Positions 51,001 through 57,000 of a DNA stretch of 64,000 nucleotides are shown here, piece after piece (the first letter of the stretch is position 1; each line of letters begins with the position of its first letter). A program made the position numbers. The stretch lies in the NCBI RefSeq assembly GCF_054482595.1, contig NZ_CM137008.1; one strand, 5' to 3'.

Positions 51001-54000
51001 CAGTAGCGGACGTTACTAACATAATTCAAGAAGATTAAAGTATTCCGGAAACGATTTTGTTAGAATGTTTTAATTATGTAACCAAGATACATTTTCTTAT
51101 GAGAGTATATGCGAGTTTTTATCTTATAATCAGAAGATTACAATCTGAACTTGTGATAGTAAAGTTACATAATTAATTATGTTAACATTGAAAAAATCAT
51201 AGGAATGCTAGTGATAAAGCCTGAAATTACATCTCTATTCAAATACTGCCCTATCGGTAAGAATCAATTAAGTGCTCTTGCACAGCGGAAAATCTGGTAC
51301 TCAAAACCGGCAGGATTTAACGATCCTTTTGACACCCAATTTTATGTGAGAGGACAAAGGCATGTGTACGAACGGGAAATGGACTCTGAAAAATTATCAG
51401 CCATTTTTGGTGAAGATATGTCAGATGTAATGGTTTCCAAAAAACGTTCTCTTGATGAACTTTTGGACAGATTTAAAAGCGGTTTAGAAAAGTTAGGTAT
51501 TCTTTCACTAGCAAGCAGTAACAAAAATTTGCTGATGTGGTCGCATTATGCTTCTGAACATAAAGGTATGTGCTTAGAGTTTAAACGCATCGCCGGCACA
51601 GCCTTAGCAGATGATAAAATAACTAGGCCGATGAATTACAATGATAATTATCCATCGATACAGGCAAGTTCAATTTTAAATGAAGTCGATACATTATCTA
51701 ATAAAATTAGAATATTACATACAAAATCTAAACATTGGGAATACGAGCAGGAGTGGAGGCATGTAGTTGAGCAAGGTAATGAGTTACATCCTTGGCCCGC
51801 AGAATTAATTTCTGTTTATTTCGGCTGCAAGACAGATATGTCAGATATACATTTGGTAAGAAGTATAATTACGGACCCAAATGTTAATTACTATAAAGGA
51901 AATTTGTACAGTGATAAATTTGACATTTATTTTCAACCGATATAATTACGTAAAAACATATATACATTAACTAATGTTAAGTATTGTAAATACATCACGA
52001 TCGATTGAATGTCTGCTGTTCGCTCGCAGCGGACCTTCAGTTCATGTAACTTTTCCGCTTCGTACCAAAAGCGGACGTCAAAATGTATGTTCAGCTAGCG
52101 TAAGTTGAGCGTTTCATAATGATGTCTCTCTGCGGGTCTGACCCAACCTGACAAATATGCTCTCCAACCTCGGTAAACCCAAGCTTACGATAAAAAGAGA
52201 TTGCCCTTGGGTTATATTCCCAGACACCTAACCAGACAGGATCCGATCCCTTTGCCTCAAATTCAGCAAAGCACTTTTGCATCAGTGCTTGCGCAAATCC
52301 TTTACCATGGTAGGGCTCATCGACATACAGGCACAGAATTTCTCTGGCATAGATGCTATTGACACAGGGAGGAAACTCTTCCCACCTTAGTTGAGCGTCA
52401 ATTTGTGGCGAAAACCCATGAGTTAGAAATTCAATCAATTACAGGAAGGAAAAGTAAAGGAGGGGGTGGCTCTCTTTAGGAGAGCCATGAGTGGAAATGG
52501 ATATTAGAAGAAAGGAGTTGTTTCCACATTAAAAATTAAGTTCATACCTATCAATTACACCATTTTTTATTCTGTAAATAACATTAGATGAAATTGACTC
52601 AAAGTAAACATACCCAACTGCTTGGATTATATTTATTAGCATGCAAGAAAATGAAACAATGAATAGTGGCAGCGAGGATGTGTTGTAGTTTACCAGGTAA
52701 ATAAATTCGCCATAATACAATGGCCCACACATTGCGAGTGCTAATGATATAAATAAAAAACCTTTTATTGCTTTAATTAAAAATATAGAGGCGTTTATTT
52801 GTTTTCTTATCTTTTCATCGCCTAAGAGATAAAGGTTGAAATCTTGAGATTTTGTTGTGTCCACTGAGAAGATATTAAGAATATGTGGGTATATCAATGA
52901 TATATCCTTTGTTTTCATAAGATTCATCATCTCTATTCTCCGCGTGACGAACAGTGAACCCAACCAAAAAACCATGAATACAGGCATAGCATAACTAGCT
53001 ATTTTGGCTATACTTATCAATGATACACTAGATGCCATGTCACCTATTTTAAATGGGATAATTAAGGTTGATTCTATGTTGACTATCTCTATCTTTGAAT
53101 TACTCTCATCTTTTATTTTTCCATCCAACCAGTTCATTGCATCATGATAGTTTGCGATTTTATCTTTTTCAGGAAGGGCCGATTCTATTTTATCCCTTAC
53201 AATATAGCCCACACTTGATTTTTCAATCTCTTTTTTCAACACATCGTACATAAAGTATTTTAACTCATTAATTGAACTCACCTCATCAAGGTCTATTTCA
53301 CGCAATCCCTCATTTATCATTTTTTTTCTAATGGAAAAGAATTCATTTTCTATTTCTGATTTATATCTTACTGTGTCCATCTCTGATTTATTTATTCTTT
53401 TTCGAAAGTCTAGAATATCAGATACGCTTTCATTAACAGCTGAAATTTGTGTTTCGATAAATTCTATTTTTCTTCTTTTTGTTTCAATTTGTTGTTTTAT
53501 ATCTTTGTATGAGGTTATTAAAGCAAATAGGTTTTGGCTGCTTAATGTAATTAATAAAGAGCAGGTGAGGAAACTAAAAATAACAACAACAATACTCATG
53601 TATAATAATCTATCAAATCTCTTTCCCAGTTCGTACAACCTATCCACTATTCTTCTCACTTTCAAAGGCGATATAGATAGGTTATATCATGCCTTCATCT
53701 TTTGAACTAAACAATCTATATCAGATAACAGTTCTCTTCGCAGTTGTGTCCCTACTCTTTGGTGGCCCGTAGGCTCCTGAGCTGGACATCGTGCGGGACT
53801 ACCTCACAGTCAATTGTAAGCAGTAAAGAGGAACGAGAACCATTCATAGAGCCTAACACACTAAATGCCGCATTGAATCCCACGACTCGGCACGATCAAC
53901 GTAAGATAATCGGAGCTTGCTGCATGGTGACAAATGGAAAATGTGAAGGTAAAGAAAACGACATTACTAACTGACGTTTGTATCTAACACTGGGGACAGG

Positions 54001-57000
54001 TCACCTTGAATCGATGGAAGTCTCATTATTCAGAAGCCGTGCTTCTCAGGGTTCTCCTGCAGTGGATAGTTTGTACGATTTGCTCCTCCGGACACTACGG
54101 GCCAGAAAAGTTGAAAATTGAGACTATGTACCAGGTGCCTCAACGTCCGCTCATCGCTCACAACGGACCTTCAGCTCAGCCGCTCCGGCCGCTTCATGCA
54201 ATGAATGTACGCAGCCAGTCAGAATATTAAGGTGCGGATTTCAGTTCACTTGTCAGCCCTGTGATGCAACAAGTTGCGGCTCCGGTTCGTGGGAGAGATG
54301 AAACGACGGTAGCTGAAGTTACTGAAATGAAGAATTCAGAGAGACTGAATGATATGCCTCACCTTTAGTGAATAGTGTAAAAACGGGAGACTCTCACCCG
54401 GGATTATCCACTCATGCTCAATGTATAATTTTCGTGTCCCTCACAGGTAAGGGCCGGATACATTTGTTGAGTACGCTGCAGAATTGGTAATCGGGGACCC
54501 TGCCGTCTTTAACTCCGGGTCTTATGCTGCTCATTTGCCACAAAATCCAGGTGCGCCTGCTCAATCATTTCATTCAGCATTTTTTTTGGGGGGACACCAC
54601 GACTTCGGGCAATACTTTCAAGCTGTTTGTGGATTTTTCCGGACAGTTTCAGCGGGACGGAACCATCAGCACGTTCATCACGCCTTTTTTGTTGCTCCCT
54701 GGCACTTTTCAGTTCATCCACAATATAGCTGCTCTTCTCGCATTTTTGCCGATTTTAAAAATGCGAACAAAACATCCGTACATGATGTACAGATTAAACT
54801 GCCAGGGACTGGTGTCAGAAAACCTCCGGTTAGCCTGCTCTTTCCGGAATGTGCCGGTTATGAAAAACCGGAAATTCAGTCTCTGTTGTAAGATGTACCC
54901 TCTGATACTACGTTTTCGTTTTCTCTGTGTATTTAACTCACTGTATTTATTTTCTTTTTAAGCCTGACTGATATTCTCCGGTCATAGTGTGCCTGATAGA
55001 CATCCCGTAACCTTCTCATTTTTATATAAAAATACCTGCACTGTCTTCAGCGCATCTGTCTCCTTTAAGTAAAAAATGTTTTCACGTATTGCTGTAAATT
55101 CATTTTAAATCAGTATGTTATCCTGATATTGCTGTCTCCTGGTTTGATGCGTAATCGTTCTGCCTTTCTGGATGATTCTGGTGCTTCCGGGTGCATTCTC
55201 CTCTGCACATGCAACAGTTCGTCATCGCCACGTGCCCAAAAGCATATAAAAACGAATCGAATCTGATCGTTTTTTCAATCGTTTTTCACAGGAATTTCGT
55301 AGGGTGTTCTCCGCTATAGCCTCCATATTTGCTGTCTTTTTCTTCATAAATCGTATGCAATATAACCAGTCTGTCAAGACATCTTCCCTGCTGTTGAGGT
55401 GACGATCTCATTTCTGGTCTTTTCCGGGAGAGAGACGGTCAGATGAGCGAGCCGGATTTACTGCCAGAGGTACTCCCCGCGGCAGAAAATAGTGCTCCTG
55501 TTTCCGCAATCCGGGATCGGCAACGTCCCATGGTTAATGCCACTTGCAGCGTCAGGCACTGCAGGTTTACGTCGTGATCTGATTTCTTCTGCACTTATCC
55601 CGATCACGGAAGTTCCCCCTGCGCAGACATCGGTTCCTGCCGACATCTCACAATACCGCCAGGCAGTCATGCAGTAACACCCGCAATGCGGTCTGCGGTT
55701 TTAAGCGCACTCTCCTGTATTCAGTGCACCGATAATGCATCATAGAAAGTCCGGGGGGAGTTACTGAATGTCTGTTAAGTGGTGCCGTGGGTGGAGACTG
55801 CTTACTTTTCCACAGTAACTGCAGTCATTCAGGATGCTCAGGAGAGAATATGTCAACGCCACGGGCCGGGCCATTTTCATGCCAGCCAGGATATTTTCAA
55901 TATTGATGCTGTCTGCTTTTCACCATTTCATCCTCACTGACTGATGTTGTATTTTTGTGCAGCACTACAGATTTGCGTTTCTCTTTTAACTGGTCACGCT
56001 CTCCTTTGATATTCAGCGTGGTTGAGTGATGCAGCAGTTGATTCAGGATTGCTGTTGCCCTGCAACCACCATATCAACTTCTTCCCGGCATGCCGGCGCT
56101 GGTATCCAGGCCGGGTTTCGAAGTGAAGCGTTCCTGACGGACTCATTGATATCCGGGCCGGATGTAGTCATGCAGCATGGAACGTCTACCCGTATACACT
56201 GACGGCGTCCGGCCGTGTACATCTCTTCCGCGGTTCAGGGAGCGCTGTCGCCATGTACTTATTGTCACCAGGAGAGGCATGTACCGCAGCATGCCAGCTC
56301 AGCAGTGACAGGATGCCCTTAAGACATCCGTCATGGCTCAGTATGACGACGCCCCCGCTCTGCAGGTGAGCATGCGGGGCCGGGAGCAGCATTCCCGTAT
56401 TTTGCCGCACCTTCCGGAAGCAACCGGCATCAGTTACGGTTATCGTCAACCGTTGTGCGGTATGCCAGGAGCACGTACTGATCCATCAGATCCGCCAGTG
56501 CTGCGTTCTGCTTCTGACGGTCGATGATCCATTCCCCCAGCTCTTTTTCTGATTTACGTTTCAGGTTCTCCGTCCAGTCGTCAAGGCTGTTTCCGGTCAT
56601 TAAATCAAGCCAGCAAAGCCAGACCAGTTTGAGGCGCAACTCAGTGCCACCAAACTGACGGAAGAGGCTGATCAGTTTATTTGCCAGAGAACGCCGCCTC
56701 AGACGTTCACATTCAGACAGCAGAATGCCTTCCAGCATCGGATGATGAACCAGCAGATGTTCGCTGGTGCATAAGTTCACCACCAGATCATCATCCAGGG
56801 GCGGCGTGGCCCGTTTGTCAGAGCCATAAATCAGCCGGTGCAGACTCCGGGGGACGATGGCAATCTCCGGTTTTTCACCATTGAATGACACCCACCCGGG
56901 CGTCAGATTATGGAAGTAGTGGATATTCGGATGACATACGCCCCAGGATACGGCGTGCCGGGTGAAGCCGGTCAGCCATTTCTGGTAGCTTTCGTGGAGC

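What the first reader, a model, noticed from the sequence alone, without database searches (positions are those of the whole stretch)
53700..56430. A 2.7-kb stretch with no intact long ORF: decayed cargo with a possible orphan ribbon-helix-helix gene
Unlike the rest of the window, this segment has only short broken reading frames on both strands. One 70-aa frame has a convincing ribbon-helix-helix pattern but no visible toxin partner. This looks like decay of former island genes, perhaps a toxin-antitoxin or mobilisation module.
Basis: seen in the sequence. Interest (0 to 1): 0.3.

Follow-up and report, generated by a model that had tools for sequence, protein, structure and literature searches.

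The report
Gene and insertion-sequence remnants in an island
This gene-poor 2.7-kb stretch of an E. coli genomic island is ordinary scar tissue: the tail of one deleted island gene, fragments of two insertion sequences, and that gene's long non-coding upstream region.

Summary
Window 53700-56430 has no ORF longer than 145 aa, which is what shuffled sequence gives, against a median of 324 aa elsewhere in the window. The window is an E. coli CP4-type island, and this stretch is 100% identical to several RefSeq chromosomes.

The "orphan ribbon-helix-helix gene" (54509-54721, minus strand) is not an orphan gene. It is the last ~70 codons of a 383-391-aa island protein, here called X, which is intact in other E. 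coli. A ~0.94-kb deletion removed X's start and about 80% of the gene. The same junction is in 328 of 5,426 complete genomes, and 5 of 7 sampled copies carry further frameshifts, so it is a pseudogene.

The rest of the stretch is:
- an IS21-family remnant (55851-56196);
- a 95-bp IS3-family end (53909-54003);
- X's 1.1-kb non-coding upstream region (54730-55850), present in 2,090 genomes;
- the 3' flanks of neighbouring genes.

No Rfam family, tRNA, conserved small ORF or covarying RNA structure was found.

X is a backbone gene rather than cargo, because distant homologues always sit directly upstream of the YeeP-type GTPase. Its C-terminus is plausibly a MatP-like ribbon-helix-helix domain, on marginal evidence only. 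The decay reading is right. The toxin-antitoxin, mobilisation and cargo readings are not supported. Interest is low.

The parts
53666..53908 (.). Unassigned spacer upstream of the 378-aa cargo ORF, whose start is at 53665 on the minus strand. Holds the left arm (53757-53792) of a 36-nt imperfect inverted repeat.
   Evidence: Shared at 99.7% only with loci that carry the same cargo (L002, L012). No ORF over 76 aa. Inverted repeat reported. GC rises from 0.29 to 0.49 here.
53909..54003 (+). IS3-family remnant: the last ~66 nt of the transposase gene plus the adjacent end sequence.
   Evidence: 84-87% nucleotide identity to the 3' end of annotated IS3-family transposase genes. 86.5% over 96 nt to L021 (2596-2501), running past the transposase stop. 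The peptide NGKCEGKENDITN* compares with NGKCEGKQTDLTN*.
54004..54141 (.). Unassigned junction DNA. Holds the right arm (54075-54110) of the inverted repeat.
   Evidence: Shared only with L002/L012-type loci. Homology to L003, L008, L011 and L013 starts at 54142, to L005 at 54218 and to L009 at 54150.
54142..54508 (-). 3' flank of gene X, non-coding.
   Evidence: Collinear with the sequence downstream of intact X: 98.8% to L011, 85% to L003/L013. No conserved ORF and no hit in the translated search.
54509..54721 (-). The 70-aa 'RHH' ORF. It is the C-terminal remnant of protein X (383-391 aa when intact) and is a pseudogene.
   Evidence: tblastn: residues 324-394 of the L011 X reading frame, 95.8% identical. 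PGAP in the identical Santai sequence: 'hypothetical protein; incomplete; missing N-terminus'. 5 of 7 sampled short alleles are cut to 48-49 aa by frameshifts in a C/A run, and 6 of 7 carry L->P in the first helix.
54719..54729 (-). Deletion junction, ...GAGCAG|CTATATTGTG|GATGAACTG... About 0.94 kb of X is missing, including its conserved GTG start and Shine-Dalgarno sequence.
   Evidence: Window 54730 pairs with L011 3179 and window 54718 with L011 4132. The same junction is in L001, L008, L009 and L022-L025. It is covered by a single match in 328 of 5,426 genomes.
54730..55850 (-). Upstream non-coding region of X. It contains a promoter-like site at 55377-55350, terminator-like hairpins at 55054-55037 and 54794-54774, and an invariant SD + ATG-CGC-TGA mini-ORF at 55065-55047.
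   Evidence: Collinear with the region upstream of intact X in all relatives. The 656-nt query 54745-55400 is present in 2,090 of 5,426 genomes at 90-100% identity and is mostly unannotated. No ORF over 41 aa is conserved. Rfam finds nothing. RNAalifold covariation term is +2.18 with 1 compensatory pair out of 165. Promoter and terminator scans are at chance level.
55851..56196 (-). IS21-family remnant. Terminal inverted-repeat 13-mer at 55851-55863, IstB C-terminus (aa 214-265) at 55903-56058, and an internal deletion joining it to an istA fragment (about aa 85-133) at 56054-56196.
   Evidence: tblastn IstB 77% identical, E 5e-21. blastn against IS21 (L007): 85% over 190 nt and 78% over 148 nt, plus an exact match to the IS21 terminal 13-mer TGTCAACGCCACG. 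PGAP: 'AAA family ATPase, missing N-terminus'.
56197..56429 (-). 3' flank of the 205-aa ORF (56430-57047, minus strand), joined to the truncated IS21 remnant.
   Evidence: From 56208 upward it is collinear at 95-96.5% with L005, L008, L009 and L011. The B-type alleles (L002-L004, L012) carry different, longer sequence between the IS21 remnant and the 205-aa gene.

Best explanation
The stretch is non-functional scar tissue in the backbone of an E. coli CP4-type genomic island.

Layout, read on the minus strand. The island runs alpA, a 205-aa gene, gene X, the YeeP-type GTPase, and then Ag43 and the rest. X encodes a 383-391-aa protein of unknown function. It has a helical core and a C-terminal domain that is probably a ribbon-helix-helix DNA binder.

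Three kinds of event emptied this interval of genes:
1. An IS21-family element inserted about 1.1 kb upstream of X. It was then internally deleted and truncated, leaving 346 bp with one intact terminus. This remnant is shared by the related E. coli islands where it was checked (annotated in 7 of the 9 relatives inspected).
2. AT-rich cargo (a 378-aa ORF, a GNAT gene and a DUF2971/PDC-S31 gene) was inserted between X and the GTPase. A 95-bp IS3-family end lies at that joint.
3. A single ~0.94-kb deletion removed X from 13 nt upstream of its conserved GTG start to about codon 313. It left only the last ~70 codons, which happen to begin with a fortuitous GTG.

What remains is X's long upstream region, the X tail and the flanks.

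Shown: the homologies, the junctions and the decay of the tail in sister lineages. Inferred: the order of events, and that nothing here is expressed to any purpose.
For: Identity of the locus. The stretch is 100% identical to E. coli chromosomes where PGAP calls only two pseudogene fragments.

The tail belongs to X. Intact X is present in L003, L004, L005 and L011-L014, and the window aligns on both sides of a ~950-bp gap.

One inherited deletion. The junction sequence is identical in 8 sampled loci and occurs in 328 genomes.

Loss of translation signals. The deletion removes the GTG start that is conserved in all alleles, together with its GAGG Shine-Dalgarno sequence.

No purifying selection on the tail. 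5 of 7 sampled short alleles are truncated to 48-49 aa by homopolymer frameshifts and 6 of 7 carry an L->P change in helix 1. In intact genes the same 55 residues are nearly invariant.

IS remnants. IS21 mapping is; IS3 mapping is.

X is backbone. The X-GTPase adjacency recurs in three distinct distant loci and in E. coli L004 and L014.

Nothing else found. No Rfam hit at E <= 1 over 50000-60000. No tRNA or tmRNA. No conserved ORF over 41 aa in the upstream region. No covariation support for an RNA. No tandem repeats. No protein homologue for any stop-free frame of the unexplained segments. The longest ORF is consistent with shuffled sequence.
Against: The 70-aa ORF is still open in the window's own lineage. 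About 34 genomes are >= 99% identical across the junction, so translation from the fortuitous GTG cannot be excluded.

Within the upstream region, about 500 nt (55340-54843) differ by only ~3.4% between allele groups. The adjacent 500 nt and the neighbouring genes differ by ~9-10%.

The minus strand of 55345-54722 folds somewhat better than shuffles: z = -3.5, against -1.9 for the plus strand, with only 20 shuffles each. A retained cis-regulatory role is therefore possible.

About 380 bp (53666-53908 and 54004-54141) have no assigned origin.

Confidence: 0.8

Rival explanations
1. The 70-aa ribbon-helix-helix frame is a working stand-alone gene. It would be a small repressor or orphan antitoxin, or a dominant-negative version of X that still binds X's operators.
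For: The frame is open in the window and in about 34 near-identical genomes. It holds the whole putative RHH domain, which is the best-conserved part of X. X's upstream region, with any promoter it contains, is still attached. One variant (L022) keeps the frame through a +3 change.
Against: The native start codon and Shine-Dalgarno sequence were deleted, and the present GTG is an accident of the junction. 5 of 7 sampled short alleles lose helix 2 by frameshift and 6 of 7 have a proline in helix 1. There is no toxin-like neighbour. PGAP treats the frame as a pseudogene. No Pfam RHH or antitoxin family matches.
Confidence: 0.06
2. The 1.1-kb upstream region, especially about 55345-54745, is still functional. 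It would act as the promoter and long leader of the backbone operon, now reading through the X remnant into the co-directional cargo genes. Alternatively it would carry a lineage-specific regulatory RNA or attenuator.
For: The region is present, always together with X, in 2,090 genomes. Divergence is lower in 55340-54843 than in neighbouring sequence. A promoter-like TTGACA-16-TACGAT site is conserved at 55377-55350, and two terminator-like hairpins are present. The only compensatory change lies in the hairpin at 54794-54774. Folding z-score is -3.5 on the minus strand. The downstream 378-aa and GNAT ORFs are on the same strand.
Against: The numbers of promoter-like and terminator-like sites do not exceed shuffled expectation. 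The RNAalifold covariation term is unfavourable and 164 of 165 predicted pairs show no compensatory change. There is no Rfam match. There is no similarity to the equivalent intergenic region of distant X loci. The uneven divergence can be explained by recombination mosaicism, which is evident elsewhere in the locus.
Confidence: 0.15
3. Undetected intact small genes or a new non-coding RNA account for much of the stretch.
For: Several micro-ORFs of 27-41 aa are unbroken in all or nearly all of the seven comparison alleles (55231-55118, 55214-55110 and 54989-55072 in all; 55411-55286 and 55019-54933 each broken in one). An invariant SD + ATG-CGC-TGA mini-ORF lies at 55065-55047.
Against: These micro-ORFs lie in nearly invariant sequence, so being intact tells us nothing. 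Two of them are broken in one allele each. None has a family or homologue. Rfam finds nothing.
Confidence: 0.04

Closest known systems
RefSeq/PGAP annotation of the identical sequence in E. coli O157:H16 Santai (NZ_CP007592.1, 4961923-4964823)
   Same: The sequence is 100% identical. PGAP already flags the RHH frame as 'hypothetical protein, incomplete, missing N-terminus' and the IstB piece as 'AAA family ATPase, incomplete'.
   Different: PGAP does not name the parent gene, the deletion junction, the istA fragment and IS21 terminus, or the IS3 fragment. It leaves the 1.1-kb upstream region blank.
IS21 (istA/istB), as in plasmid pHK01-1, L007
   Same: Three parts match: the IstB C-terminal 52 aa at 77% identity, an istA segment at 78% nucleotide identity, and an identical terminal 13-mer.
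   Different: Only 346 bp of the ~2.1-kb element remain. There is an internal deletion and the other end is missing, so it cannot transpose.
MatP (E. coli macrodomain Ter protein), ribbon-helix-helix domain
   Same: A profile of the C-termini of X homologues aligns to MatP residues 75-129, including the basic helix before the strand, at E 0.08. MatP is also the top Foldseek hit for the AlphaFold model of X. That these residues form MatP's RHH domain is from my own knowledge.
   Different: Both scores are below significance (Foldseek E 6.9). The rest of X (N-terminal helices, disordered linker, W-rich helical core) has no counterpart. In the window only the C-terminal fragment survives.
Type II antitoxins and CopG-family RHH repressors (for example MazE7 6a6x, CopG 7by2)
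   Same: Similar size and a strand-helix-helix pattern. Marginal profile hits at E 0.45 and 0.76.
   Different: The frame is a fragment of a 383-391-aa protein with no adjacent toxin. The defining gene-pair organisation is absent.
K-12 cryptic prophages CP4-44, CP4-57 and CP4-6
   Same: Same kind of island: YeeP-type GTPase, Ag43, alpA, IS scars and pseudogenes.
   Different: The 13-kb CP4-44 stretch of K-12 that was compared (NC_000913.3 2062000-2075000) has no blastn match to 53600-56500; only yeeP, flu and IS2 match. CP4-57 and CP4-6 were not compared.

Membership tests
Ribbon-helix-helix (CopG/Arc/MetJ-type) DNA-binding domain | Significant sequence match to a curated RHH family model | tested here: not met
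   No Pfam family at E <= 1 for the 70-aa frame or for intact X. The NCBIfam YbfE model scores 15.4 bits against a cut-off of 62.
Ribbon-helix-helix (CopG/Arc/MetJ-type) DNA-binding domain | Short N-terminal strand followed by two helices, about 45 residues, resembling solved RHH proteins | tested here: inconclusive
   The AlphaFold model built on a 20-sequence alignment shows an extended segment at 331-339, then helices at 340-353 and 357-381, with block-mean pLDDT of 65-90. Profile hits to MatP residues 75-129 (E 0.08), Reg576 (0.17), MazE7 (0.45) and a CopG protein (0.76) agree in kind but are not significant. Foldseek's best hit is MatP at E 6.9.
Ribbon-helix-helix (CopG/Arc/MetJ-type) DNA-binding domain | Dimerisation through the paired strands and operator binding | not testable with these tools
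   Needs a dimer model or an experiment such as EMSA.
Type II toxin-antitoxin module | Small antitoxin gene paired with an adjacent toxin gene in one operon | tested here: not met
   No toxin-like ORF flanks 54509-54721. The frame is the C-terminus of a 383-391-aa protein. Homologues are followed by a GTPase, not a toxin.
Mobilisation (relaxase/oriT) module | Relaxase or accessory-protein homology | tested here: not met
   No Pfam, NCBIfam or PHROG hit for X or the remnant. No protein homologue for any stop-free frame of the unexplained segments. oriT itself was not searched for.
IS21 family insertion sequence | istA and istB genes and terminal inverted repeats | tested here: met
   Met as a remnant only. 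IstB aa 214-265 at E 5e-21, an istA segment at E 2e-28, and an exact terminal 13-mer. Both genes are grossly truncated and the second end is missing.
IS3 family insertion sequence | Transposase gene and terminal inverted repeats | tested here: met
   Met as a remnant only. 95 bp at 86.5% identity to the 3' end of an IS3-family transposase gene and the adjacent element end.
Protein family X (unnamed; backbone gene upstream of the YeeP-type GTPase) | Full-length protein of about 300-390 aa with the W-rich core (FSW.D...W.W...FD.W.GW) and the C-terminal HK..LL.EL.KAW.QK..R...L....KL domain | tested here: not met
   Only the last ~70 residues survive in the window. The core and N-terminus are deleted.
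Protein family X (unnamed; backbone gene upstream of the YeeP-type GTPase) | Position directly upstream of the GTPase gene | tested here: not met
   In the window, 3.6 kb of AT-rich cargo and IS debris separate the remnant (54509) from the GTPase ORF (49978-50913). The adjacency holds in L004, L014, L016-L020.
Known structured RNA (Rfam 15) | Covariance-model match | tested here: not met
   No match at E <= 1 in 50000-60000 and none at E <= 0.1 in four related loci. No tRNA or tmRNA.

The most novel reading that the evidence does not exclude
Protein X is an undescribed MatP-like ribbon-helix-helix DNA-binding regulator of CP4-type islands, always paired with the YeeP-type GTPase. The conserved ~0.6-kb leader (55345-54745) would be its regulatory target. 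The short allele, found in 328 genomes, would still make an RHH-only protein in lineages like this window, and that protein would alter island gene expression, for example by driving or repressing the adjacent defence cargo.
Probability: 0.06. Interest if true: 0.45.

Novelty: already known. Interest (0 to 1): 0.12.

Why it matters
It matters little in itself. It is a worked example of how island backbones erode, through IS insertion, internal IS deletion, cargo insertion and a gene deletion that then spreads to 6% of sequenced genomes.

There are two modest by-products:
- The parent protein X is a conserved backbone gene next to the YeeP-type GTPase. It matches no Pfam, NCBIfam, PHROG or PADLOC model, and its C-terminus may be a MatP-like RHH domain. 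That makes it a candidate regulator of these very common E. coli islands.
- The interval between X and the GTPase holds a PADLOC candidate defence gene (PDC-S31), which fits the idea that this is a cargo insertion site.

For annotation, the 70-aa frame should not be called an antitoxin or a CopG-family regulator.

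Tried and rejected
In-frame deletion idea, rejected. I first thought the deletion had fused X's native GTG start in frame to the RHH tail, which would preserve expression signals. The sequences show the breakpoint lies upstream of the native start and Shine-Dalgarno sequence. The present GTG derives from the 3' part (TTG TTG GAT changed to TTGTGGAT).

Structure prediction and fold search:
- AlphaFold of X with 7 close sequences gave pLDDT 39 and was unusable.
- A 20-sequence alignment gave pLDDT 72.
- Foldseek against PDB found nothing significant; the best hit was MatP at E 6.9.
- The afdb50 library was not available.

Searches for a degraded gene in the 1.1-kb upstream region and other unexplained segments:
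- tblastx and tblastn against E. coli relatives and three distant loci found only alpA, the 205-aa gene and the X tail.
- A pseudo-protein made from 42 stop-free frames, searched against 5.8 billion proteins, gave no hit at E <= 1e-3.

Search for an RNA: Rfam, RNAalifold and folding z-scores gave no convincing support.

Other negative checks:
- Alignment of the E. coli upstream region with the intergenic regions of distant X loci showed no similarity.
- No internal repeats of the stretch occur elsewhere in the window and there are no tandem repeats.
- A literature search for yeeP, yfjP and ykfA found nothing relevant to X.
- tblastn of X against plasmids found only 3 records.

Not run: the genome contigs and metagenome scans were not spent on a low-interest finding.

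Full report
**Context.** The window is an E. coli CP4-type genomic island. Region 53600-56500 is 100% identical to chromosomes such as O157:H16 Santai (NZ_CP007592.1) and matches, at least in part, 3,791 of 5,426 complete E. coli genomes. On the minus strand the local order is:
- alpA (57126-57335);
- a 205-aa ORF (56430-57047);
- the stretch in question;
- a 378-aa ORF (52529-53665);
- a GNAT gene;
- a DUF2971 gene, on the plus strand;
- a YeeP-type GTPase (49978-50913);
- Ag43.

In the identical Santai sequence PGAP annotates only two pseudogene fragments inside the stretch. One is a 'hypothetical protein, missing N-terminus', which is the RHH frame. The other is an 'AAA family ATPase, missing N-terminus'.

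**Check of the observation.**
- The longest ORFs in 53700-56430 are 145 and 135 aa on the plus strand; the rest are 87 aa or shorter.
- Shuffles of the region give 106 +/- 25 aa, and 7.8% of them reach 145 aa.
- The median longest ORF for 2.7-kb windows across the 64 kb is 324 aa.
- The two plus-strand ORFs run antisense across the remnant and its deletion junction, have no PHROG family, and the comparable part is broken in other alleles.
- The 70-aa frame is at 54509-54721 on the minus strand.

**The RHH frame is the tail of a larger gene.** Other E. coli islands carry an intact 383-391-aa gene at this position: L003, L004, L005 and L011-L014. I call the protein X.
- The window aligns with these loci on both sides of a gap of about 950 bp. 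Window 54730 pairs with L011 3179 and window 54718 with L011 4132.
- tblastn places the 70-aa frame on residues 324-394 of the L011 reading frame at 95.8% identity.
- The junction reads GAGCAG|CTATATTGTG|GATGAACTG.
- The 5' breakpoint lies upstream of the GTG start that all alleles share. In some alleles the upstream ATG is followed at once by TGA, so GTG-GGA-AAG (VGKELDD) is the usable start. The breakpoint also lies upstream of that start's GAGG Shine-Dalgarno sequence.
- The GTG that opens the 70-aa frame is therefore an accident of the junction, not the native start.

**The short allele is old and is decaying.**
- A 301-nt probe across the junction is covered in one piece in 328 of 5,426 genomes at 97-100% identity. 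About 1,765 further genomes match only one half, as expected for the undeleted gene.
- All sampled short alleles have the same junction, so this was one event.
- Of 7 sampled records other than the window, 5 are cut to 48-49 aa by length changes in a C/A homopolymer run, which removes the second helix.
- 6 of the 7 carry L->P in the first helix. One keeps the frame through a +3 change, and one is identical to the window.
- In intact genes the same C-terminal residues are almost invariant.
- PGAP marks every short allele examined as a pseudogene.
- The tail is thus not under purifying selection once the rest of X is gone.

**What X is.**
- X has no Pfam, NCBIfam, PHROG or PADLOC match.
- Close homologues that carry a source name are from E. 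coli. A profile search of 1.84 billion representatives finds full-length relatives at 20-32% identity.
- In three distinct distant loci the homologue lies directly upstream of a YeeP-type GTPase (MMR_HSR1). In two of them it is transcribed divergently from an adjacent alpA; in the third an 82-aa and a 193-aa ORF lie between it and alpA.
- In those distant loci the surrounding genes include WYL, DUF932, antirestriction and RadC genes on one side. The other side carries a 197-aa gene, REP_ORF2-G2P-like (weak or faint Pfam hits) and zinc-ribbon genes, and YagK/YfjJ genes in two of the three loci.
- In E. coli L004 and L014, X also abuts the GTPase.
- X is therefore a backbone gene, not cargo.
- An AlphaFold model built on 20 sequences (pLDDT 72, pTM 0.62) shows N-terminal helices, a disordered linker at 62-148, a helical core, a long helix, an extended segment at 331-339 and two final helices.
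- A profile of 16 C-termini aligns to MatP residues 75-129 (which I take, from my own knowledge, to be its RHH domain) at E 0.08, to Reg576 at 0.17 and to Gogy at 0.032. A narrower profile hits MazE7 at 0.45 and a CopG protein at 0.76.
- The toxin-antitoxin reading fails on organisation, because there is no partner toxin and the frame is a fragment.

**The rest of the stretch.**
- *IS21-family remnant, 55851-56196.* It comprises the IstB C-terminal 52 aa (77% identical, E 5e-21), an istA segment (78% nucleotide identity, about aa 85-133) joined to it by an internal deletion, and an exact copy of the IS21 terminal 13-mer at 55851-55863. The other end is missing. The remnant is annotated or aligned in nearly all related islands examined, so it appears to be old.
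- *IS3-family remnant, 53909-54003.* This is a 95-bp IS3-family 3' end, 86.5% identical, with a recognisable C-terminal peptide. It lies at the joint with the AT-rich cargo.
- *X's own 3' flank, 54142-54508.* It is shared with L003, L008, L011 and L013, and in part with L005 and L009.
- *Sequence found only with this cargo, 53666-54141.* It is shared only with loci that carry the same cargo, L002 and L012.
- *3' flank of the 205-aa gene, 56197-56429*.
- *Unassigned DNA.* About 380 bp (53666-53908 and 54004-54141) have no assigned origin. They carry a 36-nt imperfect inverted repeat that brackets the IS3 piece.

**The 1.1-kb upstream region, 54730-55850.** It starts exactly at the IS21 terminus and runs to X.
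- The 656-nt stretch 54745-55400 is present in 2,090 genomes at 90-100% identity and is mostly unannotated.
- Three allele groups differ by up to 10%.
- No ORF over 41 aa is intact in all alleles. The few micro-ORFs that are intact lie in nearly invariant sequence, so their integrity is uninformative.
- Rfam finds nothing.
- RNAalifold gives an unfavourable covariation term (+2.18) and one compensatory pair among 165. That pair lies in a hairpin followed by a U-run at 54794-54774.
- The minus strand of 55345-54722 folds at z = -3.5, against -1.9 for the plus strand, with only 20 shuffles each.
- A TTGACA-16-TACGAT site at 55377-55350 is conserved, but promoter-like and terminator-like sites are no more frequent than in shuffles.
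- The region has no similarity to the equivalent 500-600-bp intergenic regions of distant X loci.
- The 3' ~500 nt diverge less (~3.4%) than the 5' ~500 nt and the neighbouring genes (~9-10%). The locus is visibly a recombination mosaic: the window's X tail is 99.7% identical to L002 while its upstream region is only about 85-90% identical to L002. I therefore do not read the uneven divergence as evidence of constraint.
- The most economical reading is that this is the promoter and leader region of X, now orphaned. A residual role, such as read-through into the co-directional cargo genes, is possible but untested.

**Verdict.** The stretch is ordinary island decay, and the public annotation already flags it as pseudogenes.

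Confidence in the scar-tissue explanation is about 0.8. The main residual uncertainty is whether the leader, or the still-open 70-aa frame in this lineage, retains some activity.

Noticed in passing
window 50900-53700 (DUF2971 ORF 51205-51945 +; GNAT 52091-52438 -; 378-aa ORF 52529-53665 -): AT-rich cargo (GC 0.29-0.39, against about 0.5 on either side) lies between the X remnant and the YeeP-type GTPase. The DUF2971 protein matches the PADLOC candidate defence family PDC-S31 at E 2.5e-58, so this interval may be a defence-gene insertion site.
   Followed up: partly
window ~58392-59730: An IS2 copy, 95% identical to K-12 IS2F, interrupts the 792-bp hypothetical gene upstream of alpA, leaving the 238-aa ORF at 57719-58435. 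The gene is intact in strain Santai, so the window comes from a different strain.
   Followed up: partly
L016-L020 compared with window 56430-57335: In two of the three distinct distant loci (L016; L017-L019) alpA and the 197-aa gene are adjacent to X and transcribed divergently from it. In L020 an 82-aa and a 193-aa ORF lie between X and alpA. In E. coli the homologous alpA and 205-aa genes point the same way as X, with the IS21 remnant between them. This suggests an old inversion or rearrangement, possibly IS-mediated.
   Followed up: no
protein X family (L011 3193-4338; P0031, P0032, P0039 and others): This is a conserved family of about 300-390 aa with a W-rich core motif and a C-terminal putative RHH domain. 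It has no Pfam, NCBIfam, PHROG or PADLOC model and lies directly upstream of a YeeP-type GTPase in every locus examined. Structural searches found no convincing relative.
   Followed up: partly
window 53757-53792 and 54075-54110: A 36-nt imperfect inverted repeat (75% complementary, 282 nt apart) brackets the IS3-family remnant. Its origin is unexplained.
   Followed up: no
window 55065-55037 (minus strand): A strong Shine-Dalgarno sequence (AAGGAG, 55065-55060) is followed by a three-codon ATG-CGC-TGA mini-ORF (55055-55047). The mini-ORF overlaps a terminator-like hairpin with a U-run (55054-55037). All of this is invariant in all five alleles aligned.
   Followed up: no
window 54794-54774 (minus strand): A 9-bp hairpin followed by a U-run lies about 50 nt upstream of X's start. 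It carries the only compensatory base-pair change seen in the leader (A-U to U-G), and part of it (TTCTGTACA) is duplicated in some alleles.
   Followed up: partly
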